In this document: piece after piece, positions 1-57,844 of the stretch
Position numbering within the stretch: the stretch's first letter is position 1
Layout of the letters: every line of letters starts with the position of its first letter
Assembly: GCF_050920415.1 (NCBI RefSeq)
Contig: NZ_CP169309.1
Length of the DNA: 64,000 nt
Direction: 5' to 3' (one strand)
Origin: Escherichia coli
GTDB lineage: Bacteria > Pseudomonadota > Gammaproteobacteria > Enterobacterales > Enterobacteriaceae
Position numbers and translations under genes: made by a program
Notes under the pieces: model-generated
What the model saw: the letters and a program-made list of their open reading frames with translations, nothing else
Told to the model about the DNA's origin: nothing
The model's database searches: none

Positions 1-1081
1 TTAACCCTCTACAGAATAACAACAACTTCAAAGGGCGTAATGTTATTGTAATCTTTGCTGAGGGATTTTCATCGGAGATTATTGGTAATTCAAAAATGGC
101 GCATTTTCCAATTACGCCTAATTTAGATAAGTTATCTACTGAAGCACTAAGTTTTAAAAATTATTATAACCATACAGCAGTAACCTTTCGAGGTTTAAGA
201 GGCCAGTTAACTTCTGGCTATCAATTTCGTGATGGGTTAACTGATGCTGGTACTGGTATTGCACAATTATCTAACGTAGAAATTAATAATATTTATCTTC
301 ATCGTCAAACATCTTTGCCGAATATATTGAAAGAGTATGGCTATAAAAGTTATTTTATAGCGTCTACAGAAAAAATAGCCCACTCAACACTATGTTGAAA
401 ACGCTTAATTTTGATAAAGTTCTTGGTATGGGAGATTTTATTGGTTATCAACGCGACAGAATGACTGATAAGCAAACATTTAATGCACTGCAATATTTTT
501 TACGTTCTCAAGAAAATAAAAACGAACGCTTTTTTATTGGTGTGTACCCATCTGGTACTCATCATGGTCAAGATAGTCCAAATGAAAAATATTTTGATGG
601 TAGCAATCCTCTCTACAATAAATTCTATAACTATGATTTTCAGTTGGGGAAGTTTGTTGATTTTTTTCGGCGCAGTTCATTTTATGGCAATACGTTGTTG
701 ATAATTACATCGGATCATTCTACATTTCCTTCGACAGAATATAAGAAATCATTTAACAGCGATTCTCGTTATTTTGTGGACAAAATACCATTTCTGATCA
801 TTGGGAAAAATATTACGCCTGAAGTTTTAGATGCAGGAGGTGAAAATTCTTTAAGTTTCGCGCCAACAATATTGCACATGTTAGGGATTCAGTATTCAAT
901 GAATTATTTTTTGGGGTGTTCTCTTTTTGATAAGACGTGCACATCACCATTCTCACATCTTTCTGCTATTGGTAGTGATTATTTCAATACAGGCAAAGAA
1001 AATCATGTTGAACTAATTCAAAATAATAGTGGTAATGAATTAATAAAATTAGCCGAACGTTTTTATAACATTAGTGGCTAA
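1..1081 (+). pseudogene. Sulfatase-family (alkaline phosphatase superfamily) phosphotransferase-like gene, 5' end outside the window, frame broken near 392-398
   Basis: Open frame from window start to 398 (NVIVIFAEGFS metal-site-like motif), then continues in another frame 392..1081 (ITSDHSTFP motif). AT-rich, as expected for an O-antigen cluster gene beside gnd. The frame break could be a sequencing error. Confidence 0.5.
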
Positions 1082-21751: not shown

Positions 21752-21934
21752 TTAGCGATAGCCTTCTTCTGTATGCAGCAAGGCAAAAAGTTCTGCAACT
21801 CCATTGTTATTAACCGCACTGGTTACTAACACATTGTGCGCTCCAGCTTCCCGTAACCAACTTTTCACCAAAGATATTTGTTCCATACTGGCTAAATCTG
21901 CTTTGGTGACTACTCCAATGACCGGGCGATTCAT
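21752..21934 (-). pseudogene. yoeF: Remnant of a PduV/EutP-like small GTPase gene (yoeF-like fragment)
   Basis: 60 aa ORF ...[25 protein letters not shown]... resembles the C-terminus of PduV/EutP-family proteins; no full-length partner frame. Confidence 0.45.
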
Positions 21935-22519
21935 TGACGAGGTAAAGCCTGGCGAAAAAGGTGACCACGGTGCGTCCGCATTAAGTACCAGCGCGATAAT
22001 GTCTGCTTCGCAGGCACTGACTAACAGAGCACTGTAGAGGCTGCGGTTTTATCGGTGAGGACTGGCAGCAAGATTTCCAGCCTTTTGACGGTGGGCCTGT
22101 GCAATCGTTATCAGATTCGTATAGCGATTATTCAGTGCTGCTATTGATAGCAGCTGAAAGCGAGATATCCGTACCAGAATAGCTCCCTCATTCTGAGGGA
22201 ACGACGGTAATTTTGATTGCAGAACACAATGCCCGTTTGCTGAATGGTCCGGCTGGTGGGGCTGTAGCATTAATCCATTATTTGAATGAAATCAGTCATG
22301 CCAGAGAAACCGCTGTCAATGACGCATTTTGTCGGACGTTAACACGAGGAAGTCTGGCTATTCCGCAATGCCATCTTCTTTCGTAATGGATTGAGAATGC
22401 TGGATTTTTAATTATATTACGCGCAGTATTAATCGCGTAAATGTTTTGCGGTCAGCAACAGTGGGGGAACCATTGTTCTGTTCAATGAATACCATCATAC
22501 AATTGAATCAGGAGTCGGT

Positions 22520-23816: not shown

Positions 23817-24896
23817 ATGCAAACACTTGCCAATTTACTGAATACGATCCCTGCCATCGATCCTGCCGCTATGTCGCGTGCACAACGGCATATTGACGGG
23901 TTGCTCAAACCTGTTGGTAGCCTGGGAAGGCTGGAGGCGCTTGGCGTACAACTGGCGGGAATGCCGGGGTTGAATGGCATACCGCATGTGGGCAAAAAAG
24001 CGGTACTGGTTATGTGTGCCGATCACGGCGTCTGGGAGGAAGGGGTCGCTATTTCCCCAAAAGAAGTGACAGCCATTCAGGCTGAAAATATGACCCGCGG
24101 AACAACCGGCGTGTGTGTGCTGGCAGCACAAGCGGGCGCTTACGTCCACGTAATTGATGTTGGTATTGATACTGCTGAGCCTATCCCCGGGCTTATCAAC
24201 ATGCGTGTCGCACGAGGTAGCGGCAATATTGCTTCAGCTCCGGCAATGAGTCGCCGTCAGGCTGAAACGTTGCTTTTGGACGTCATATGCTATACGCGGG
24301 AGCTGGCAAAAAACGGTGTCACGCTGTTTGGTGTAGGTGAACTGGGGATGGCAAACACGACACCGGCAGCGGCGATAGTGAGCACAATCACTGGCCGGGA
24401 TCCTGAAGAAGTGGTTGGGATTGGCGCAAACCTGCCGACAGATAAACTGGCTAATAAAATTGATGTTGTGCGACGGGCGATTACGTTGAATCAACCAAAT
24501 CCGCAGGATGGCGTTGATGTCCTGGCAAAAGTGGGTGGATTTGATTTGGTCGGAATGGCTGCCGTGATGTTAGGCGCTGCGTCCTGCGGTTTACCGGTGT
24601 TGCTGGATGGATTTCTTTCTTATGCTGCCGCGCTCGCAGCCTGCCAGATGTCTCCTGCAATCAAACCGTATCTCATTCCTTCTCACCTGTCGGCAGAAAA
24701 AGGGGCGCGTATAGCGTTGTCGCATTTGGGGCTGGAGCCTTATCTCAATATGGATATGCGTTTAGGTGAGGGAAGTGGCGCAGCTCTGGCGATGCCCATC
24801 ATCGAAGCTGCCTGTGCGATATACAACAGCATGGGCGAACTTGCTGCCAGTAATATTGTTCTACCGGGGAATACGACTTCTGATTTGAACAGTTAA
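23817..24896 (+). CDS. cobT: Nicotinate-nucleotide--dimethylbenzimidazole phosphoribosyltransferase
   Basis: 359 aa, recognised CobT. Confidence 0.95.
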
Positions 24897-24957
24897 AAAC
24901 GAAAAGTCTGATAAAAGCTATACTTATCGGATAGTATTCGCGACTTAGGAAAGGGAC

Positions 24958-27208
24958 ATGATGCGTCGTGTAAATATTTTTTGCTCATTTGCTCTACTTT
25001 TTGCCAGCCATAATAGCCTGGCGGTAACTTATCCATTACCTCCAGAGGGTAGCCGTTTAGTGGGACAGTCGCTTACTGTAACTGTTCCTGATCACAATAC
25101 CCAGCCGCTGGAGACTTTTGCCGCACAATACGGGCAAGGGTTAAGTAACATGCTGGAAGCGAATCCGGGGGCTGATGTCTTCTTACCGAAGTCTGGCTCG
25201 CAACTCACCATTCCGCAGCAACTGATTTTGCCCGCCACTGTTCGTAAAGGGATTGTGATTAACGTCGCTGAGATGCGTCTTTATTACTACCCGCCAGACA
25301 GTAATACTGTGGAAGTCTTTCCTATTGGTATCGGCCAGGCTGGGCGAGAAACCCCGCGTAACTGGGTGACTACCGTTGAACGTAAACAAGAAGCACCAAC
25401 CTGGACGCCAACGCCGAACACCCGGCGCGAATATGCGAAACGAGGGGAGAGTTTGCCCGCATTTGTTCCTGCGGGGCCTGATAATCCCATGGGGCTGTAC
25501 GCGATTTATATTGGCAGGCTATATGCCATCCACGGTACCAATGCCAATTTTGGTATTGGGCTCCGGGTAAGTCAGGGCTGTATTCGTCTGCGCAATGACG
25601 ATATCAAATATCTGTTTGATAATGTTCCTGTAGGTACTCGTGAACCGCCCCGGAAATCCTGGAGACTAAACTTCCTGAGAAAGAGGTAAACAGGATGACT
25701 AAAAATACTCGTTTTTCCCCCGAAGTCCGTCAACGCGCAGTTCGTATGGTTCTGGAAAGTCAGGGCGAATATGACTCACAATGGGCGGCAATTTGTTCCA
25801 TTGCTCCAAAGATTGGCTGTACGCCAGAGACTCTGCGTGTCTGGGTTCGCCAGCATGAGAGGGATACCGGGAGCGGTGATGGTGGGCTCACCACCGCTGA
25901 ACGTCAGCGTCTGAAAGAGCTGGAACGTGAAAATCGTGAACTGCGCCGCAGTAACGATATCCTTCGCCAGGCTTCCGCTTATTTTGCGAAGGCGGAGTTC
26001 GACCGCCTCTGGAAAAAATAATGCCACTGCTGGATAAGCTGCGTGAGCAGTACGGGGTCGGACCGGTATGCAGTGAACTGCATATTGCCCCGTCAACGTA
26101 TTACCATTGTCAGCAGCAGCGGCATCATCCTGATAAACGCAGTGCCCGTGCGCAGCGCGATGACTGGCTGAAGAGAGAGATACAGCGCGTATACGATGAA
26201 AATCATCAGGTGTACGGTGTGCGTAAAGTCTGGCGTCAGTTGTTACGGGAAGGAATCAGGGTGGCCAGATGTACAGTGGCGCGCCTCATGGCGGTTATGG
26301 GACTTGCCGGTGTTCTCCGGGGTAAAAAGGTCCGCACTACCGTCAGCCGGAAAACCGTTGCCACAGGTGACCGCGTAAACCGTCAGTTCGTGGCAGAACG
26401 TCCTGACCAGCTGTGGGTGGCTGATTTTACTTACGTCAGCACATGGCAGGGCTTCGTCTATGTGGCGTTCATCATTGATGTGTTTGCCGGATACATCGTG
26501 GGGTGGCGGGTCTCATCGTCTATGGAAACGACATTCGTGCTGGATGCGCTGGAGCAGGCGTTGTGGGCCCGTCGTCCGTCTGGCACCATCCATCACAGCG
26601 ATAAAGGCTCTCAGTATGTGTCACTGGCCTATACGGAGCGACTAAAAGAAGCAAAACTGCTGGCATCAACAGGGAGTACAGGCGACTCGTATGACAACGC
26701 GATGGCTGAGAGCATCAATGGTCTTTACAAAGCGGAGGTAATACACCGTAAGAGCTGGAAAAACCGTGCAGAAGTGGAACTGGCCACACTCACGTGGGTG
26801 GACTGGTATAACAATCGACGATTGCTGGGAAGGCTGGGCCATACTCCTCCGGCAGAAGCAGAAAAAGCTTATTATGCTTCCATCGGAAACAATGATCTGG
26901 CAGCCTGAGTTCACAGATAAAACACTCTCCAGGAAACCCGGGGCGGTTCAACTCGTGTACAAATTATTGATCAGCCAGTGAAATACACAACGGAACCGGA
27001 TGGATCAAAGTGGCTGGAAGTTCATGAGCCACTGTCGCGCAACCGTGCGGAATATGAGTCAGACCGAAAAGTGCCTTTGCCAGTAACGCCATCTTTGCGG
27101 ACGTTCATTAACGGGCAAGAAGTTGATGTGAATCGCGCAAATGCTGCATTGCAGCGCCGATCAGGAATGCCTGTGCAAATTAGTTCTGGTTCAAGACAGA
27201 TGTTTTAA
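24958..27208 (+). pseudogene. ldtA: L,D-transpeptidase LdtA (ErfK) interrupted by an IS element; 5' part 24958..25640, 3' part 26951..27208
   Basis: N-terminal ORF ends ...DNVPVGTR at the IS boundary; the reading frame resumes exactly after the IS as TRVQIIDQPVKYTTEPDGS...SGSRQMF. Confidence 0.9.
25641..26950 (+). mobile_element. IS3-family insertion sequence, IS629/IS1203-like, 1310 bp, with orfA 25695..26021 and orfB 26021..26908
   Basis: Terminal inverted repeats TGAACCGCCCCGG...CCGGGGCGGTTCA; orfA (108 aa, HTH) and orfB (295 aa, DDE transposase) overlap at an A-rich slippery region; flanked by direct repeat ACTCG. Confidence 0.92.
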
Positions 27209-27230
27209 GAGCGTTGTTAATTAGAAAGCA

Positions 27231-27258
27231 AAAAGCCTGCTCGAAAGCAGGCTTTTTT
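27231..27258. terminator. Hairpin terminator between ldtA and asnV
   Basis: aaaagcctgctcgaaagcaggctttttt. Confidence 0.75.
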
Positions 27259-27263
27259 GAATT

Positions 27264-27339
27264 TGGCTCCTCTGACTGGACTCGAACCAGTGACATACGG
27301 ATTAACAGTCCGCCGTTCTACCGACTGAACTACAGAGGA
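27264..27339 (-). tRNA. asnV: tRNA-Asn (GUU)
   Basis: 76 nt; reverse complement begins TCCTCTGTAGTTCAGTCGGTAGAACGGCGGACTGTTAATCC and ends ...GAGGAGCCA. Confidence 0.95.
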
Positions 27340-27592
27340 ATCGTGTGAACGGGGCGCATATTAATGGCAGTGCATGGTGATGTCAAAGGGTGAAATGCAT
27401 TTTTTTGTTTGTTTGCTGCCAATTTCGACAAAATGGTGAGCTTTCAATCTTTTTGGTAATGAACCATCGTGGTGCATACCTTTCTGTCTTGGGGCAGAGA
27501 ACGCGAGTTCTAATAAAAAGATCGAGTGACAAAACTATCATAATCTCTTATTTGACCGTTGGTTAGCTTGCATATCAACACAAAATTAAAAC

Positions 27593-29670: not shown

Positions 29671-29746
29671 TGGCTCCTCTGACTGGACTCGAACCAGTGA
29701 CATACGGATTAACAGTCCGCCGTTCTACCGACTGAACTACAGAGGA
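29671..29746 (-). tRNA. asnU: tRNA-Asn (GUU)
   Basis: 76 nt, identical tRNA-Asn sequence on minus strand. Confidence 0.95.
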
Positions 29747-31494: not shown

Positions 31495-31570
31495 TCCTCT
31501 GTAGTTCAGTCGGTAGAACGGCGGACTGTTAATCCGTATGTCACTGGTTCGAGTCCAGTCAGAGGAGCCA
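31495..31570 (+). tRNA. asnW: tRNA-Asn (GUU)
   Basis: TCCTCTGTAGTTCAGTCGGTAGAACGGCGGACTGTTAATCCGTATGTCACTGGTTCGAGTCCAGTCAGAGGAGCCA. Confidence 0.95.
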
Positions 31571-37706: not shown

Positions 37707-45695
<7,989 letters not shown>

Positions 45696-47567: not shown

Positions 47568-48167
47568 ATGCCAAATATTGCCGTTCTCACTAATGACCTG
47601 CAGTATGAGTTTACCTACAAAATAACACGCTCTCCAGAAATTCTGGCGCAAAAACTCGTCCAGTTTAATCAGTTTCTCGATGGCATTCGCGCTCTGGATC
47701 AATCCATTATCCACCTGCAACTTATCAACGATCCTAATGACCCGGCGGTACAAAAGCGCTATCGCAACCGCGAAGCGGGCATTCCTGCACTAGCTGGTCG
47801 CCCGGAAAACCAGATTATCGATAAAGTATACCGCCCCACAGATCTGGTTGTAGTCAAGGGCAGAGACAGCGGTTTTTTTAATAACGATCTCGACGAAATC
47901 CTCCAGCAACTCGGGGTAAAAACCGTAATCGTTACCGGGTTGCAAACTCATGTTTGCGTGCAGACCACTGCAGCGGATGCCTTCTTTCGCGGCTATAACG
48001 TCTGGGTACCGGGCGACTGCGTGTTCGCTCCTTCGTCCGAAGATACAGAGCGTGCACTCGAGTGGCTTGCCAGCTATTGCGCAACTGTAGCACCTTCTGC
48101 GGAAATTTTATCAATATTGCAAAAACAGAACGATCTGCCTGAGCGCGGCGAAAGGGAAGCATCATGA
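47568..48167 (+). CDS. Isochorismatase-family cysteine hydrolase
   Basis: 199 aa; ...VTGLQTHVCVQTTAADAF... matches the catalytic Cys region of the isochorismatase/CSHase/nicotinamidase family. Confidence 0.75.
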   Translation: MPNIAVLTNDLQYEFTYKITRSPEILAQKLVQFNQFLDGIRALDQSIIHLQLINDPNDPAVQKRYRNREAGIPALAGRPENQIIDKVYRPTDLVVVKGRDSGFFNNDLDEILQQLGVKTVIVTGLQTHVCVQTTAADAFFRGYNVWVPGDCVFAPSSEDTERALEWLASYCATVAPSAEILSILQKQNDLPERGEREAS

Positions 48168-49195
48168 GCTTAACCCAGACGCTAAATCATGAAGAGGTCG
48201 TTGTACTGGATCATGGCACCGGGGCGAAATTAAGCCGCGAGTTGGTTGAAAAAATTGCTAGCATTCTCGGTGACACCTATCTGGGCGTGATGGAAGATAG
48301 CGCGGTGCTGGGGTTATCCACCAGGCGAATTGCCTTCACCACCGACTCCTTTGTTGCCACGCCGCTGATTTTCGGCAACGGTGATATTGGCAAAATCGCC
48401 GTATGCGGCACCGTTAACGATCTCGCTGTCAGTGGGGCTCGTCCCCTTTACATCACACTCAGTCTTATTATTGAGGAAGGTATGCCGATGGCTGATCTGG
48501 TCAGAATCATCGAGTCCGTACGTGAAACGGCTCGTGAGGCAGAGGTCAAGATTGTCGCTGGTGATACCAAGGTCGTAGGTAAAGGTGAAGCAGATCGGCT
48601 GTTTATCAATACTGCTGGCATCGGCGTGTTTGAACATCCGCCAGTCTCAGTTAAGAACGTGCGTCCGGGGCAGAAAATAATCCTGAGCGGATATATCGGC
48701 AATCACTCGATTCACCTGCTGTCGATGCGGGAAGGATTGGGGTTCGAGCGAAATATTCTTAGTGATTGCGCACCGCTGAACCACATTATTGACAAACTTA
48801 TCAGCAACATCCCTGAAGGCAAAATAGCGTCAATGCGAGACGTTACGCGCGGTGGGCTGTCCGCTGTTTTACACGAACATGCGCGCGCAACAAATTATCA
48901 GATTCATTTCGACCAGCCATCTTTGCCCATACAGCCGGAAACCGCCATGGCAGCTAATATGCTGGGTGTTGACGTCATTAATCTCGCTAATGAAGGTTGT
49001 TTGTGCCTGTTTGTTGAACCTGAGTATGCTCAGAAGGTACTACATTTGCTGCAGGAGCATCCTGTCGGCAAGCACGCGACAATTATCGGCGAGATCACCG
49101 CTGTCTCGGGTACTGAAGTCTATATGATTGAAGCTGATGGAACACACACAGAAGTCGAGGAATTATATGGCGCAGAATTACCCAGACTCTGTTGA
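48164..49195 (+). CDS. HypE-like protein (PurM superfamily; carbamoyl dehydratase / thiocyanate-forming type) with C-terminal Cys
   Basis: 343 aa; ...DTKVV.KG.ADRLFINTAG.G... and C-terminus ...ELPRLC resembling HypE PRIC; ATGA overlap with upstream gene. Confidence 0.8.
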   Translation: MSLTQTLNHEEVVVLDHGTGAKLSRELVEKIASILGDTYLGVMEDSAVLGLSTRRIAFTTDSFVATPLIFGNGDIGKIAVCGTVNDLAVSGARPLYITLSLIIEEGMPMADLVRIIESVRETAREAEVKIVAGDTKVVGKGEADRLFINTAGIGVFEHPPVSVKNVRPGQKIILSGYIGNHSIHLLSMREGLGFERNILSDCAPLNHIIDKLISNIPEGKIASMRDVTRGGLSAVLHEHARATNYQIHFDQPSLPIQPETAMAANMLGVDVINLANEGCLCLFVEPEYAQKVLHLLQEHPVGKHATIIGEITAVSGTEVYMIEADGTHTEVEELYGAELPRLC

Positions 49196-51545
49196 GCTTC
49201 ACGAGACGCCGGAAACCCGGCGTTACCGCATCTGTGGGGTCGTTCAGGGCGTTGGATTTCGTCCCTTTGTTCACCGACTGGCCCGCACCTATGGTGCCAC
49301 CGGCTGGGTGTTAAACGATTCAGAAGGCGTGTTGCTTGAGCTGCAGGCATCCGGCACGGTTATTGCCAGAATCATGGACAAACTGGTGACCGAGGCACCA
49401 CCACTGGCAAAAATCATCAGTACGCAGGAAGTTAGCCCAACGGATACCAGAGCGCACTATGAAACGTTCAGCATCCGTAAAAGCCGCGATCATACCAGCA
49501 TGGACACGATTATCCCGCCAGATACCAACGTCTGCAGCGATTGCCTGCGCGAGATAAGCGATCCTGATAATCATCGTTATCGTTACGCTTTCACCAATTG
49601 CACCAATTGTGGGCCGCGCTATTCCATTATTCTTGGTATGCCTTACGATCGTGCCCAGAGCACTATGCGTAAATTCCCTTTATGTCCAACCTGTGAGCGT
49701 GAATACAACGATATTGAGGATCGACGCTATCATGCCCAGCCCAATGCCTGCCCAGTTTGCGGCCCACAGTTGCAACTTACCGATCGACAGGGCACATCCG
49801 TTCACACAGATGATATTGTCAAATTTGCCATTACGAAACTAAAAGAAGGCGGAATTCTTGCAATAAAGAGCCTTGGTGGCTTTCATCTCGTGGCCGATGC
49901 TTGCAATGAGAATGCTGTCAATGAACTTCGGCAACGCAAGCGAAGAGACGCCAAACCTTTTGCAGTGATGGTCGCGGATGTGGAAAGCGCGTCGCGTATT
50001 GCTTTCATCCCCCCCTGTAATCACAAATTGCTGGAAAGCCCGCAGCGTCCCATTGTCTTGTTGTATAAGCGCAACGTCCTGCTGGCGAGTACCGTTGCGC
50101 CACATAATCCGAACATCGGTGTAATGCTGCCTTCAACGCCGCTTCAGCATTTATTGCTGGAAGACCCGTCTCTGCCGATCCTGATTATGACCAGCGGTAA
50201 TATTTCCGGTCATCCGATCGTCTTTGACAACGACATGGCAATTAAGCAACTCGGGAAAATCGCGGATTACTTCATTCTGAATAATCGCGATATTCATACG
50301 CGTGTTGACGATTCGGTGGTCCGCACGGTGTTTCTCAACGACGCCATTACCTCGCAGCTATCGTTTTTGCGCCGCTCCCGCGGTTACGCGCCATACCCTA
50401 TTCATCTACCTTACGCAGTGGATTCCGTTATCGCGCTCGGGGCGGAGCTAAAAAACACGATCAGCATCGGCAAAGGAAAACAGGTTTTTCTGAGCCAGCA
50501 TATTGGCGATCTTAAGAATAACGTGACTTTTAAATCACATATCGAATGTATTGATCATCTTCAAAACCTGCTGAACGTGAAGGCAAATGTCGTGGCCTGC
50601 GATTTGCATCCCTCTTTCCGCTCTACCCGGCATGCGCTGGAGAATTTAGAGCATCAGGTTGTTCAGGTTCAACACCATCACGCGCATATGGCATCCTGCA
50701 TGGCGGAAAATGGCCTGTCAGGTACTACTCTAGGCGTAATTTTTGACGGTACAGGATATGGCACCGACGGCACCATTTGGGGCGGTGAGTTTCTCGTTGG
50801 TGATTTCGAAAAATTCGAGCGTGCAGGATGCTTGCGTTCAATGACCCTGCCCGGAGGCGATCGGGCAGTTAAAGAGCCGCTGCGCGTCGGCATCTCCTTA
50901 CTGGTGGAAACCTTCGGCGAAGATATCAGTACGCTCGCAGTACCAGGCTTGCAGGCGCTCCAGCCTCAGCAGCGCGATATATTCAGTAAAATGGCGACCA
51001 GAAAAATCAACACCACCACGACCAGCAGCATGGGCAGACTATTTGACGGCATCGCCGCGCTGATGGGCGTTTGCACTCAGGTGGAGTACGAAGCCCAGGC
51101 GGCCATTGAACTGGAAGCGCTGCTGCAGTGTAAACTTCATATGACGGCTCCGTTCAGCTACATCATTGCCGATGTCGAGAATAAGCTCGAGGTGGATTAT
51201 CGCCCGATGATAAGGGAACTGGTGCAATGCTTCAGCCAGCCCGGTTTTGATATGGCCGAACTAAGTCGGCGCTTTCACTCTACCATCGTCGACATGATTT
51301 GCGAGGTCTGTAAACGTCTGGTGGCACGCTCAGGCACGCAACAAATTGTCCTGAGCGGCGGCGTGTTCTGCAATGAATTCATCCTCGTTAATTCTCTTAA
51401 CAGTCTGGAGTCTTGTGGATTCCGGCCTTACAGCCATCAGTTAGTTCCGACTAACGATGGTGGTATTTCATTGGGGCAAGTGGTTATTGCTACCGCATAC
51501 ACTCGCGCAACGCGCAATAAAAATCTGGAGAGAGAAAATGCATAG
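49167..51545 (+). CDS. HypF-like carbamoyltransferase (acylphosphatase, two CxxC-N18-CxxC Zn fingers, YrdC-like and Kae1-like domains)
   Basis: ORF 49128..51545; start at ATG 49167 with GAGG RBS; VQGVGFRPFV acylphosphatase motif; CSDC...CTNCGPR and CPTC...CPVCGP fingers; HHHAH in the C-terminal domain. Confidence 0.82.
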   Translation: MAQNYPDSVELHETPETRRYRICGVVQGVGFRPFVHRLARTYGATGWVLNDSEGVLLELQASGTVIARIMDKLVTEAPPLAKIISTQEVSPTDTRAHYETFSIRKSRDHTSMDTIIPPDTNVCSDCLREISDPDNHRYRYAFTNCTNCGPRYSIILGMPYDRAQSTMRKFPLCPTCEREYNDIEDRRYHAQPNACPVCGPQLQLTDRQGTSVHTDDIVKFAITKLKEGGILAIKSLGGFHLVADACNENAVNELRQRKRRDAKPFAVMVADVESASRIAFIPPCNHKLLESPQRPIVLLYKRNVLLASTVAPHNPNIGVMLPSTPLQHLLLEDPSLPILIMTSGNISGHPIVFDNDMAIKQLGKIADYFILNNRDIHTRVDDSVVRTVFLNDAITSQLSFLRRSRGYAPYPIHLPYAVDSVIALGAELKNTISIGKGKQVFLSQHIGDLKNNVTFKSHIECIDHLQNLLNVKANVVACDLHPSFRSTRHALENLEHQVVQVQHHHAHMASCMAENGLSGTTLGVIFDGTGYGTDGTIWGGEFLVGDFEKFERAGCLRSMTLPGGDRAVKEPLRVGISLLVETFGEDISTLAVPGLQALQPQQRDIFSKMATRKINTTTTSSMGRLFDGIAALMGVCTQVEYEAQAAIELEALLQCKLHMTAPFSYIIADVENKLEVDYRPMIRELVQCFSQPGFDMAELSRRFHSTIVDMICEVCKRLVARSGTQQIVLSGGVFCNEFILVNSLNSLESCGFRPYSHQLVPTNDGGISLGQVVIATAYTRATRNKNLERENA

Positions 51546-52278
51546 TTCTGCGAACCGTATTGCCGCTGTTTTATTCGATATGGATGGTGTCCTTATTGAT
51601 TCCAATGCGGTGATTGAGCGCGGCTGGGCTGAAGGCGCACAGATGTTTGGCAAGACGCTAACGGAAGAGGATATCGTCAGGCATATTCACGGACAGCCCG
51701 GCCCGCATACCATTCGCGCCCTGTTCAGCGACCTTTCCCTGGAAGATCAAAAGAAGGTCCAGTCACATATCATCCACGTTGAAAATACCGCTGATTACGA
51801 CCCGATCCCTGGAGTTAGCGAACTTATCCAGGCGTTGCATAAGGCTGGCATCAGTGTGGGGATTGTCACTAGCGGCTGGCGGTCGAAAATCGATCGTATT
51901 ATGGAGATGCTGCAAATCACGCCCTGTATTTCAGTGATTGTCGAACGTGATGATGTCGTGCGCGGCAAGCCTTATCCCGATCCTTATCTGCTTGCCGCAG
52001 AGCGGTTTCATCTTGCACCGTCCAGAACACTGGTCTTTGAGGATTCAAGAAGCGGCGTAACATCTGCTGTTACAGCAGGCGCAATTTGTGTTGGCATCGG
52101 TACAGACAGTCTGAAAGAGTGCGGTGCCGTGCTTGCAATTACAGATTTTCGTAATGTGAAAATCACCTCACAGACAGGCGAAAAAGTAGTGATTGCCTTT
52201 ACTCCAGAGCACCAGATGGAGATGGAAACTCAGAGCTCTCGTAAGAAAACATCCTGTACCACAAGAGAAGAGTGCTAA
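51538..52278 (+). CDS. HAD-superfamily hydrolase (subfamily IA, phosphatase/beta-phosphoglucomutase-like)
   Basis: ORF 51457..52278; start at MHSSANRIAAVLFDMDGVLIDS (DxDG motif), overlapping the hypF-like stop. Confidence 0.75.
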   Translation: MHSSANRIAAVLFDMDGVLIDSNAVIERGWAEGAQMFGKTLTEEDIVRHIHGQPGPHTIRALFSDLSLEDQKKVQSHIIHVENTADYDPIPGVSELIQALHKAGISVGIVTSGWRSKIDRIMEMLQITPCISVIVERDDVVRGKPYPDPYLLAAERFHLAPSRTLVFEDSRSGVTSAVTAGAICVGIGTDSLKECGAVLAITDFRNVKITSQTGEKVVIAFTPEHQMEMETQSSRKKTSCTTREEC

Positions 52279-53471
52279 TGAATATCACACAGAAGGGACG
52301 CTGGGCTGTCACTATGCTATTTTTTATCAATGGCTTCGTCACCGGAGGTTGGGCTGTGCAAATTGCACAGCTTGTACCACGCTTTGGCGTGACCGACAAA
52401 GTGATCGGCCATTTAATTCTGATCTTCGGATTCGGTGCACTAACCATGATGCCCATATCAGGCATTCTGATGGAAAAGATGGGGACACAAATCGTAACGC
52501 GTATTTTTGCCCTTGCAGCCTCCCTGGCATTAATTCCGGTTGGTTTAGCCACCACCCCATTAGTGTTGATGCCAGCGTTATTTGTTCTTGGTGCGATGAT
52601 TGGTGCCATGAATGTAGCGATGAACTCGAATGCCGTGGCGGTGGAGAGATCACTCTCACAAGCGATTTTATCCTCCTGCCATTGCTTCTGGAGTATCGGC
52701 CTATTTGCGGCGGGCTCGATAGGCGGCCATCTTGTTGAACAATTTGGCTTTTTGACGCATATCTTTTTGATTAGTGCCGTGGCCTTAATACTGACGCTGA
52801 TTATCGCTCCGGCCATTTTTAAAGACATACAGACGGTTAAATCCACCAGCAGACAGACCACCCGGTTGCCTCGTTCTCCGGCGATTTATCTGATTGGATT
52901 GATGGCTTTTCTGGCCATGATCCCTGAATGCGCTGTTGTTGACTGGTCGTCACGCTATTTGATTAAAAATCTCAATGCAAAAACAGAAATCGCCAGCCTT
53001 GCCTTCGCCTGCTTTGCTGTAGCAATGGCCTTGTTTCGCTTTATGGGTGACGTGATCCGCAACCGCTTCGGCGCAATATTAATTATACGAATCTCCAGCT
53101 TACTGGCAGGCGCTAGCCTATTGTTGAGCGCACTGGCACACAATCCCTGGCAGGCGATCTGCGCATTTACCTTAGCGGGAATCGGCATCGCCAACCTTGT
53201 GCCCATTGTCTTTTCCGCAGCGGGAAATCAGCCCAATATTTCCACCAACACAGGAATGAGCATTGCCACAACCATTGGGTATTTAGGCACGCTAATGGCC
53301 CCTGCGCCTATTGGCTATATTGCGGAAATAACCGGTTTTCCAGTGGTTTATTGCGGACTAGCTTTCATGTCGGGAATTATCTTTTTGCTGGCACCACTGG
53401 TTCGGGGGGCAGAAATCTCTGTACAGCGGCAGCGAGCCTCAAACAAACACCAGAATACCGGAGCGTTGTAA
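52272..53471 (+). CDS. MFS transporter
   Basis: 399 aa, about 12 predicted TM segments; start overlaps the HAD stop (GTG 52272 or ATG 52278). Confidence 0.75.
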   Translation: MLMNITQKGRWAVTMLFFINGFVTGGWAVQIAQLVPRFGVTDKVIGHLILIFGFGALTMMPISGILMEKMGTQIVTRIFALAASLALIPVGLATTPLVLMPALFVLGAMIGAMNVAMNSNAVAVERSLSQAILSSCHCFWSIGLFAAGSIGGHLVEQFGFLTHIFLISAVALILTLIIAPAIFKDIQTVKSTSRQTTRLPRSPAIYLIGLMAFLAMIPECAVVDWSSRYLIKNLNAKTEIASLAFACFAVAMALFRFMGDVIRNRFGAILIIRISSLLAGASLLLSALAHNPWQAICAFTLAGIGIANLVPIVFSAAGNQPNISTNTGMSIATTIGYLGTLMAPAPIGYIAEITGFPVVYCGLAFMSGIIFLLAPLVRGAEISVQRQRASNKHQNTGAL

Positions 53472-54027
53472 TTTCTGCCTGGCAAATACTGTGAAACGCT
53501 GACGCAAATTTTACTTTCCTGCGTATTGTCATCACAGGCCGTACAGACAGTGCGCGGTCTGTTGGCGGATCTGCCTGGTATTTTGCCGATGAACTGAGGG
53601 CGTCCTGCGGGATACGTATCGCCAGGGGCGTGAAACTAATTGATGAGGTGGCGGCATGATGCCGGCGGACTAGCATATCTGCCTTTCGCCGCCTGACATG
53701 TCCTTTGGGGCCGCTGTCAGTTCAGAGTAAAGGAGAAAAAGATCGATACCGAGGGGGGGCACGACGCCCCGGAGACACCCCTGTTTCGTCAGACAGTCTG
53801 TACCGCGTACAGCCTGAAACTCCCTAAACCTCAACAAACTGCCACTTCGACGTGAAGGTATCGTTCTGGCGCAGCCAAAAAGCACATGCCGGAGACTGTT
53901 TTTTTGGTTGTAGAGGGTAGTCATGAGCAAATTAAGTAGTGAAATGAAGGCCCTGACGAAGAAAGCAGGCGGCAGCTTCAAAACGGTAAATGACCGTATC
54001 CATATTACAAAACGGTTCAGTGAGCAT

Positions 54028-54225
54028 TTACGCGAACTGAACATCCAGATCCGGCGGGTATGCGCCAAGACTGACTCTGGATTCTTTTCCGTTGAAACGA
54101 TATTTGAGATACCAGATGCGTGAACCGCCCGGATTGACGAGCAGATACAGACCGTGAGAGTCGGAGAGTTTTACCGGACGGGAAGAGGTTTTTAACTTGC
54201 GGATTTTAGAATCGTTTAAAGACAT
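54028..54225 (-). pseudogene. P4-type tyrosine integrase, N-terminal remnant only
   Basis: MSLNDSKIRKLKTSSRPVKLSDSHGLYLLVNPGGSRIWYLKYRFNGKESRVSLGAYP matches the N-terminal arm-binding region of tRNA-associated island integrases, then terminates prematurely. Confidence 0.65.
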
Positions 54226-54386
54226 TTGGGGGTCACTCCAGAATCGAACCAAACTGACCCCAGATCTGACCACCAAATTATCCCGATGCGGAGAGAAAAC
54301 CAGATACGCACCGGGGAGGATTTTCACGCTAACTTACTGAACCGTAAACAAATAGAGATGTACAGATAAGCATGAAAACTTGAATT

Positions 54387-54462
54387 TGGCTCCTCTGACT
54401 GGACTCGAACCAGTGACATACGGATTAACAGTCCGCCGTTCTACCGACTGAACTACAGAGGA
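54387..54462 (-). tRNA. asnT: tRNA-Asn (GUU)
   Basis: 76 nt, identical tRNA-Asn sequence; sits between mtfA and the islet/yeeJ. Confidence 0.93.
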
Positions 54463-57652: not shown

Positions 57653-57844
57653 AACAGTTTCCTCCAGAGTTATTGTACATGACGTGTTATGTTATATTGT
57701 AACATATGACGAAATGCAATAACTCTTAGGAAACAAGAGCATAGTTTTCTCAGGTGTATTTACCTATCTTATTGAAATGAAATAAATTATGTCGATGATT
57801 TGAGGTTGATGACAAACGAAACATAACTTGATGCGATCTGTGTG

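What the first reader, a model, noticed from the sequence alone, without database searches (positions are those of the whole stretch)
24958..27208. IS629-like insertion splits the L,D-transpeptidase gene ldtA (erfK)
A 1310-bp IS3-family element with TGAACCGCCCCGG inverted repeats, orfA and orfB sits exactly within the ldtA reading frame; the frame resumes immediately after the element (...VGTR | VQIIDQPVKYTTEPDGS...), with ACTCG duplicated at both junctions. This inactivates one of the enzymes that attach Braun lipoprotein to peptidoglycan. IS629 is, as far as I recall, typical of EHEC O157 and Shigella lineages, so this may hint at strain background.
Basis: partly seen in the sequence, partly recalled or inferred. 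Interest (0 to 1): 0.5.

Follow-up and report, generated by a model that had tools for sequence, protein, structure and literature searches.

The report
IS629-type insertion sequence interrupting ldtA
A common 1.3-kb jumping gene of the IS629/IS1203 type has landed inside ldtA, one of three redundant E. coli enzymes that tie the outer membrane lipoprotein to the cell wall; this is an ordinary, strain-specific gene knockout that standard annotation already flags in a sister genome.

Summary
A 1310-bp IS3-family element lies at window 25641-26950. It has 13-bp perfect terminal inverted repeats (TG...CA ends), intact orfA and orfB, an A6 frameshift site with an ALIL pseudoknot, and a DDE motif. 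It sits in codon 228 of ldtA and is flanked by a 5-bp direct repeat, ACTCG. Removing the IS and one repeat copy gives a 936-nt ORF. That ORF scores as the LdtA equivalog and differs by one residue from an intact allele whose empty site is identical over 60 bp.

The element belongs to the IS629/IS1203/IS3411 group. It is 97.2% identical to an IS1203-named copy, 95.0% to a Shigella plasmid copy and only 94.8% to an O157:H7 copy. IS629-like DNA occurs in 4250 of 5426 complete E. coli genomes, so it does not indicate an O157 or Shigella background.

The same insertion is found in one complete genome, MFDS1022581. This is a Korean food isolate with an stx2g prophage and an O2-type O-antigen gene, and its ldtB and ldtC are annotated intact. 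The likely result is a null ldtA allele with a mild phenotype. The one small oddity is the 5-bp duplication, where 3 bp is usual. This is a known kind of event of low interest.

The parts
24958..25640 (+). ldtA 5' part (codons 1-227 plus 2 nt of codon 228): signal peptide, most of the YkuD catalytic domain including His192 and Cys208. As it stands the ORF runs into the IS to 25689 (243 aa, with a 15-residue IS-encoded tail [15 protein letters not shown]).
   Evidence: ORF list; Pfam YkuD 97-231; motif positions; PGAP pseudogene 'missing C-terminus' in the sister genome
25636..25640 (.). left copy of the 5-bp target-site duplication ACTCG
   Evidence: single copy in the empty site of strain E200086
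25641..26950 (+). complete 1310-bp IS3-family insertion sequence of the IS629/IS1203/IS3411 group
   Evidence: 100% identical full-length copies in other E. coli genomes carry an intact transposase annotated with programmed frameshift
25641..25665 (.). left terminal inverted repeat (TGAACCGCCCCGG...; 13/13 perfect, 22/25 overall)
25695..26021 (+). orfA (108 aa, DNA-binding part of the transposase)
   Evidence: NCBIfam transpos_IS3 on the OrfAB fusion
25976..26092 (+). ALIL pseudoknot (Rfam RF01497), the -1 frameshift stimulator; the A6 slippery run lies at 26013-26018 inside it
   Evidence: 120.9 bits, gathering score 50, E 3.3e-32; sequence
26021..26908 (+). orfB (295 aa, -1 frame). The OrfAB fusion (25695-26018 + 26018-26908, 404 aa) carries D244, D303, E339 and K346.
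   Evidence: (NF033516, 365.3 bits, cut-off 160)
26926..26950 (.). right terminal inverted repeat (...CCGGGGCGGTTCA)
26951..26955 (.). right copy of the 5-bp target-site duplication ACTCG
26956..27208 (+). ldtA 3' part (remainder of codon 228 to the stop): last strand of the YkuD domain and the whole Ldt_C domain, now without promoter, start codon or signal peptide
   Evidence: PGAP pseudogene 'L,D-transpeptidase', incomplete at its 5' end, in the sister genome
27230..27257 (.). 12-bp-stem hairpin with T runs on both sides between ldtA and the convergent tRNA-Asn gene (27264-27339, minus strand); probable bidirectional terminator, so no downstream gene is exposed to polar effects

Best explanation
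An IS629/IS1203-type IS3-family insertion sequence transposed into codon 228 of the chromosomal ldtA (erfK) gene and duplicated 5 bp of target (ACTCG). IS3-family elements are known to move by a copy-out/paste-in route through a circular intermediate.

The element looks transposition-competent. It has both ends, intact orfA and orfB, the A6 slippery run with the ALIL pseudoknot that yields the OrfAB transposase by -1 frameshifting, and a DD(35)E-K catalytic motif.

The insertion cuts LdtA after Arg228. Translation from the ldtA start now gives a 243-residue product: 228 LdtA residues plus a 15-residue tail. This product keeps the signal peptide and the catalytic His and Cys. It lacks the last beta-strand of the YkuD fold and the entire C-terminal Ldt_C domain. 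The 3' fragment has no start signals.

The most likely result is a null ldtA allele (inferred). LdtB does most Lpp attachment and LdtC is also redundant with LdtA. Both are intact in the sister genome. The expected phenotype is therefore at most a small drop in peptidoglycan-bound Braun lipoprotein.

The event is recent and lineage-specific: 1 of 5426 complete E. coli genomes shares it.
For: Anatomy of the IS and the duplication. ALIL pseudoknot at 120.9 bits. OrfAB matches NCBIfam transpos_IS3 at 365.3 bits (cut-off 160). DDE spacing.

Identical copies in strains RM9088, UTAK-1, OkiPb01676 and OkiPb01711 are annotated as intact transposase with programmed frameshift.

The reconstructed ORF matches NF007563 (the L,D-transpeptidase equivalog of LdtA length) at 695.9 bits (cut-off 517), ahead of the paralogue models. 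It shows 7 differences over the 310 residues of K-12 LdtA. It shows 1 difference from strain E200086, with an identical empty site.

Synteny is cobU-cobS-cobT-ldtA-asnV-nac-cbl, as in K-12.

Domain map: YkuD 97-231 and Ldt_C 235-303. The B. subtilis YkuD structures align up to residue 231, two to three residues short of their C-termini.

The same junction is 100% identical in one other, independent assembly, where PGAP calls both halves pseudogenes. The uninterrupted site is present in 5411 of 5426 genomes.

ldtC and ldtB are intact in that sister genome.

Redundancy of LdtA/B/C, with LdtB doing the majority: PMC12505904, PMC8263019, PMC12729407.
Against: Loss of activity is not demonstrated; the truncated product retains His192 and Cys208. 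The 5-bp duplication is longer than usual. All four other copies examined here that have a duplication show 3 bp, and 3-4 bp is reported for IS629 in O157 (PMC3271280). ldtB and ldtC were checked only in the sister genome, not in the genome the window comes from, which is not available.
Confidence: 0.88

Rival explanations
1. The truncated LdtA (residues 1-228 plus a 15-residue IS-encoded tail) is still exported and partly active, so the insertion yields a hypomorph or an altered enzyme rather than a null.
For: The signal peptide, the AIHGT histidine (192) and the SQGCIR cysteine (208) all lie upstream of the break. B. subtilis YkuD works without an Ldt_C domain: its solved chains are 164-175 residues long and align only to the catalytic domain.
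Against: The break removes the final VQII strand, which lies inside the Pfam YkuD model (match to 231, model 146/146) and inside the region aligned to the solved YkuD structures. It is replaced by a basic, unrelated tail. The Ldt_C domain is present in the closest solved homologue, 4LZH.
Confidence: 0.08
2. The knockout was selected. Lowering Lpp-peptidoglycan tethering benefits an O-antigen-producing gut or bovine E. coli, for example under bile-salt stress, so the allele is adaptive rather than neutral drift.
For: In O-antigen-restored K-12 lacking waaL, disrupting ldtA, ldtB or ldtC each marginally restored bile-salt resistance, and deleting lpp restored it fully (PMC12505904; review PMC12729407). 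The window carries O-antigen cluster genes.
Against: Only 1 of 5426 complete genomes shares the insertion, and 5411 keep the site uninterrupted, so there is no sign of recurrent loss. The reported effect of a single ldt deletion was marginal and was seen in a waaL mutant. LdtA is the minor enzyme.
Confidence: 0.04
3. The insertion is an assembly artefact: an IS copy was wrongly placed into ldtA.
For: IS copies are a frequent cause of misassembly, and this strain background has other copies (MFDS1022581 has 2 places on the chromosome and 3 on a plasmid).
Against: Both junctions are clean, and a 5-bp duplication matches the single-copy empty site exactly. The same junction appears in an independent complete assembly. 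That assembly differs from the window elsewhere: an extra IS2, two 1-bp indels in the ldtA IS and one SNP in the 12.6 kb around it. The plasmid IS copy of that strain differs from the ldtA copy at 3 positions.
Confidence: 0.01

Closest known systems
IS629 and its isoforms IS1203 and IS3411 (IS3 family)
   Same: Length is 1310 bp with no indels against an O157:H7 copy or an IS1203-named copy. It has the same TGAACCGCCCCGG termini, the same orfA/orfB layout and the same ALIL frameshift pseudoknot. Nucleotide identity is 97.2% to an IS1203-named copy, 95.0% to a Shigella flexneri plasmid copy and 94.8% to an O157:H7 copy. This is the same range as the 4-5% divergence reported between IS629 sub-types (PMC3271280).
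   Different: It is a distinct, rarer isoform. Copies at 99% identity or more occur in only 43 E. coli records and 15 plasmid records, mostly from cattle, a crow and food isolates. PGAP gives its transposase only the generic name 'IS3 family transposase'. Here it made a 5-bp rather than a 3- to 4-bp duplication. No ISfinder entry could be aligned with these tools.
Laboratory delta-ldtA (erfK) mutants of E. coli K-12
   Same: The same gene is disrupted. LdtA, LdtB and LdtC redundantly attach Lpp Lys58 to meso-DAP, and only the triple mutant loses Tri-Lys-Arg (PMC8263019; PMC12505904).
   Different: This is a natural insertion allele in a wild strain. It leaves a 243-residue truncated ORF rather than a clean deletion. 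Its phenotype is untested.
Other IS629-type gene disruptions in Shiga-toxin E. coli (IS629 behind O-rough O157:H7 strains; IS in lacZ of O121:H19, removable by the IS-excision enhancer IEE)
   Same: An IS3-family element inactivates a chromosomal gene in an STEC background, as a strain-specific polymorphism (abstracts of PMC3271280 and PMC9397093).
   Different: The target gene differs, and no visible phenotype is expected. Whether this strain has IEE, which could make the insertion reversible, could not be checked.

Membership tests
IS3 family insertion sequences | Length about 1.2-1.55 kb with terminal inverted repeats ending 5'-TG...CA-3' | tested here: met
   1310 bp; TGAACCGCCCCGG...CCGGGGCGGTTCA, 13/13 perfect and 22/25 overall
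IS3 family insertion sequences | Two consecutive ORFs, the second in the -1 frame, joined by programmed -1 frameshifting at an A-rich slippery site with a downstream RNA stimulator | tested here: met
   orfA 25695-26021 and orfB 26021-26908 in the -1 frame. A6 run at 26013-26018. ALIL pseudoknot RF01497 at 120.9 bits against a gathering score of 50. Identical copies are annotated 'programmed frameshift'. Frameshifting itself was not measured.
IS3 family insertion sequences | Transposase with a DD(35)E catalytic triad and K/R seven residues after the E | tested here: met
   D244, D303, E339 (35 residues between D303 and E339) and K346; NCBIfam NF033516 transpos_IS3 at 365.3 bits, cut-off 160
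IS3 family insertion sequences | Short target-site duplication (3-5 bp for the family, from established knowledge; 3-4 bp reported for IS629) | tested here: met
   5-bp ACTCG, proven by the single-copy empty site. This is within the family range but longer than the 3 bp seen at four other copies and the 3-4 bp in PMC3271280.
IS629 group (IS629 / IS1203 / IS3411 isoforms) | About 95% or higher nucleotide identity to a named reference copy over the full 1310 bp (the ISfinder isoform convention, recalled from memory) | tested here: inconclusive
   97.2% to a copy PGAP names 'IS1203 family', 95.0% to a Shigella flexneri plasmid copy and 94.8% to an O157:H7 copy, all gap-free. The ISfinder reference entries themselves were not available.
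LdtA (ErfK) L,D-transpeptidase | Full-length match to the LdtA equivalog model above its cut-off, scoring better than the paralogue models | tested here: met
   Reconstructed protein: NF007563 at 695.9 bits (cut-off 517), covering profile positions 1-310 of 310. The next models, NF007612 (458 bits, cut-off 583) and LdtE (309 bits, cut-off 480), fall below their cut-offs.
LdtA (ErfK) L,D-transpeptidase | Conserved chromosomal position between cobT and asnV-nac-cbl | tested here: met
LdtA (ErfK) L,D-transpeptidase | YkuD catalytic domain with the His...Cys active site, plus the Ldt_C domain | tested here: met
   In the reconstructed protein: YkuD 97-231, Ldt_C 235-303, His192, Cys208. In the window as it stands, the two domains are separated by the IS.
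LdtA (ErfK) L,D-transpeptidase | Attaches Lpp to peptidoglycan (enzymatic activity, and its loss in this allele) | not testable with these tools
   Needs muropeptide analysis

The most novel reading that the evidence does not exclude
The ldtA knockout is not neutral. It would be a selected way for an O-antigen-bearing, Shiga-toxin (stx2g) O2-type bovine/food lineage to loosen outer membrane-peptidoglycan tethering, for example for bile-salt tolerance or vesicle release. The atypical 5-bp duplication would reflect an unusual strand-transfer geometry of this rare IS629 isoform.
Probability: 0.04. Interest if true: 0.35.

Novelty: already known. Interest (0 to 1): 0.08.

Why it matters
It matters little beyond strain description.

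The insertion is a clean, lineage-specific marker. Only 1 of 5426 complete genomes shares it, so it could serve for typing or tracing this stx2g, O2-type lineage. It also shows that a rare IS629 isoform has been active recently in that lineage.

Physiologically it removes the minor of three redundant Lpp-attaching enzymes. Any effect on envelope integrity should be small unless ldtB or ldtC are also impaired.

It does not open a new question. PGAP already annotates both gene halves as pseudogenes in the sister genome.

Tried and rejected
1. K-12 as the empty-site comparator. The K-12 ldtA differs at 49 of 933 nt and its site reads GTTGGGACGCGTGTG, so it cannot show the duplication directly. 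A closer intact allele (strain E200086) was used instead.

2. O157 or Shigella background inferred from the IS. This was rejected. The O157:H7 copy is only 94.8% identical, the Shigella plasmid copy 95.0%, and the family is present in 78% of complete E. coli genomes. The O-antigen gene at the window start matches O2-type clusters.

3. The window being the MFDS1022581 assembly itself. This was rejected. The window lacks that genome's IS2 between zinT and msrQ and differs by two 1-bp indels in the IS and a few SNPs.

4. A 3-bp duplication with chance extension. This was rejected, because the filled site is exactly 1315 bp longer than the empty site.

5. The plasmid IS copy of the sister strain as the immediate donor. 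It differs at 3 positions, so this stays undecided.

6. PGAP product names as a way to name the isoform. They were uninformative: this isoform and the O157 copy are both called 'IS3 family transposase'.

7. Structure prediction and the large protein-database searches were deliberately not run; the question did not need them.

Full report
**1. The observation**

Reading window 24700-27500 and a direct check confirm every sequence statement.

- TGAACCGCCCCGG starts at 25641. Its reverse complement ends at 26950. Each occurs only once in the 64-kb window.
- The element is exactly 1310 bp. The terminal inverted repeats are 13/13 perfect and 22/25 when extended.
- The ORF list gives orfA at 25695-26021 (108 aa) and orfB at 26021-26908 (295 aa) in the -1 frame.
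- ACTCG lies immediately outside both ends, at 25636-25640 and 26951-26955.
- Joining 24958-25640 to 26956-27208 gives a 936-nt open frame of 311 aa that reads ...NVPVGTR|VQIIDQPVKYTTEPDGS....

**2. The interrupted gene is ldtA**

- The reconstructed protein matches NCBIfam NF007563, an L,D-transpeptidase equivalog of 310 positions. The score is 695.9 bits against a cut-off of 517, over the whole profile. The paralogue models fall below their cut-offs.
- It differs from K-12 LdtA (b1990) at 7 of 310 residues.
- Gene order is cobU-cobS-cobT-ldtA-tRNA-Asn-nac-cbl, as in K-12.
- K-12 is a poor empty-site comparator, because synonymous differences change the site.
- A search with the reconstructed 600-bp site found it uninterrupted in 5411 of 5426 complete E. 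coli genomes.
- The closest intact allele, in strain E200086, has an identical 60-bp site with a single ACTCG and one amino-acid difference overall.
- The filled site is therefore 1310 + 5 bp longer than the empty one, so the 5-bp repeat is a true target-site duplication.

**3. The element**

- The OrfAB fusion was built by a -1 shift on the A6 run at 26013-26018. It matches NCBIfam transpos_IS3 at 365.3 bits, cut-off 160.
- It carries D244, D303, E339 and K346, the DD(35)E-K signature.
- Rfam finds the ALIL pseudoknot (RF01497) at 25976-26092 with 120.9 bits against a gathering score of 50. This is the -1 frameshift stimulator described for IS3411 by Mazauric et al. 2008, cited in PMC4066793.
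- Copies 100% identical to the window's occur in strains RM9088, UTAK-1, OkiPb01676 and OkiPb01711. They are annotated there as intact transposase with programmed frameshift.
- The copy in ldtA therefore looks transposition-competent.

**4. Which IS it is**

All comparisons are gap-free over 1310 bp.

| Compared copy | Identity |
|---|---|
| Copy that PGAP names 'IS1203 family' (strain 350) | 97.2% |
| Shigella flexneri plasmid copy | 95.0% |
| O157:H7 copy (strain YB14-1) | 94.8% |

- This spread matches the 4-5% divergence reported between IS629 sub-types. It also fits the treatment of IS1203 and IS3411 as IS629 isoforms (PMC3271280).
- 'IS629-like' is therefore correct. However, this is a distinct and rare isoform. 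Only 43 E. coli records and 15 plasmid records hold a copy at 99% identity or more, mostly from bovine faeces, a crow and food.
- The ISfinder entries themselves could not be aligned with these tools.

**5. Strain background**

- IS629-like DNA is present in 4250 of 5426 complete E. coli genomes. It is also on plasmids of Escherichia, Shigella, Salmonella and Klebsiella. The IS says little about lineage.
- The exact ldtA-IS junction occurs in one complete genome only: MFDS1022581, from animal-source food in Korea.
- The window is 99.98% identical to that genome over the 12.6 kb around the insertion and about 99.99% over the rest of the shared sequence. It lacks that genome's IS2 between zinT and msrQ and differs by two homopolymer 1-bp indels inside the IS and a few SNPs. 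It therefore comes from a sister strain or a different assembly.
- The first 1.1 kb of the window is the terminal gene of an O2-type O-antigen cluster.
- MFDS1022581 carries an stx2g prophage between potB and potC.
- The background is therefore most likely a non-O157 Shiga-toxin E. coli with an O2-type antigen. This conclusion comes from those markers, not from the IS.

**6. Consequence for LdtA**

- Pfam places YkuD at residues 97-231 and Ldt_C at 235-303. His192 and Cys208 lie upstream of the break in codon 228.
- The ORF now continues 15 codons into the IS and ends at 25689, giving 243 aa.
- Lost are the final VQII strand and the whole Ldt_C domain. That strand lies within the Pfam YkuD model and within the region aligned to the B. 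subtilis YkuD structures, up to two to three residues from their C-termini.
- The 3' fragment has no start signals.
- I infer a null allele with about 0.85 confidence. This is not shown.
- No polar effect is expected. ldtA is followed by a strong hairpin at 27230-27257 and a convergent tRNA-Asn gene.

**7. Expected phenotype**

- LdtA, LdtB and LdtC redundantly attach Lpp to meso-DAP. LdtB does the majority of the attachment, and only the triple mutant loses Tri-Lys-Arg (PMC12505904; PMC8263019; PMC12729407).
- In the sister genome ldtC (963 nt) and ldtB (921 nt) are annotated intact.
- The expected phenotype is mild.
- A speculative adaptive reading exists. In an O-antigen-restored waaL mutant, single ldt disruptions marginally improved bile-salt resistance. 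The rarity of the allele argues against selection.

**8. One small oddity**

- The duplication is 5 bp.
- The four other copies examined that show a duplication all have 3 bp: GTA, TAC, GGA and TAC.
- Rump et al. report 3-4 bp for IS629 in O157.
- Five base pairs is within the IS3-family range (established knowledge) but atypical for this group. I have no specific explanation beyond variation in the stagger of the strand-transfer cuts.

**9. Verdict**

The finding is real and correctly interpreted in its core. It is an ordinary IS-mediated pseudogenisation, already flagged as such by PGAP in the sister genome. Novelty: already known. Interest: low.

Noticed in passing
window 25636-25640 and 26951-26955: The target duplication is 5 bp (ACTCG). 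Four other copies of this IS group with a recognisable duplication all show 3 bp, and the literature gives 3-4 bp for IS629.
   Followed up: partly
window 1-1081: The last gene of an O2-type O-antigen cluster, next to gnd, is split into two ORFs annotated 'sulfatase-like hydrolase/transferase'. Many O2 strains have one 'LTA synthase family protein' that is 1 bp longer over the same span. This may be a frameshifted O-antigen modification gene.
   Followed up: partly
window 57723-57730: This is the empty site of an IS2 that is present between zinT and msrQ in the otherwise near-identical genome MFDS1022581. The window therefore comes from a sister strain, and IS content is polymorphic within this lineage.
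   Followed up: partly
L001 6961-7160 (MFDS1022581), equivalent to window 26323 and 26500: The sister genome's copy of the ldtA IS has two 1-bp homopolymer deletions (A5 to A4, G4 to G3) and is annotated 'frameshifted'. These are either sequencing errors in that assembly or real decay; the window's copy is intact.
   Followed up: partly
L010 35546-36787 (MFDS1022581 chromosome 2985545-2986786; outside the window): The only complete genome sharing the ldtA insertion carries Shiga toxin Stx2g A and B subunit genes on a lambdoid prophage inserted between potB and potC. That prophage itself has an IS2 in its tail region.
   Followed up: no
window 21752-22386: Remnants upstream of cobU: a partial EutP/PduV-family gene and a cobalamin-biosynthesis gene with an internal stop, both annotated as pseudogenes in the sister genome.
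   Followed up: no
window 47568-54462: A cluster absent from the K-12 stretch I inspected: cysteine hydrolase, HypE-like, HypF-like carbamoyltransferase, HAD hydrolase and MFS transporter. It is followed by two integrase N-terminal fragments (53923-54225) next to a tRNA-Asn gene (54387-54462). It looks like the remnant of an island integrated at an asn tRNA.
   Followed up: no
window 37707-45695 (minus strand): A 7989-nt gene for an Ig-like-domain protein, in the position of yeeJ. It has internal repeats of about 690 bp that are 85% identical to each other.
   Followed up: no
window 27264-27339, 29671-29746, 31495-31570, 54387-54462: Four tRNA-Asn genes lie in the window, with near-identical flanking repeats of about 100 bp. 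These are potential substrates for recombination or island integration around ldtA.
   Followed up: no
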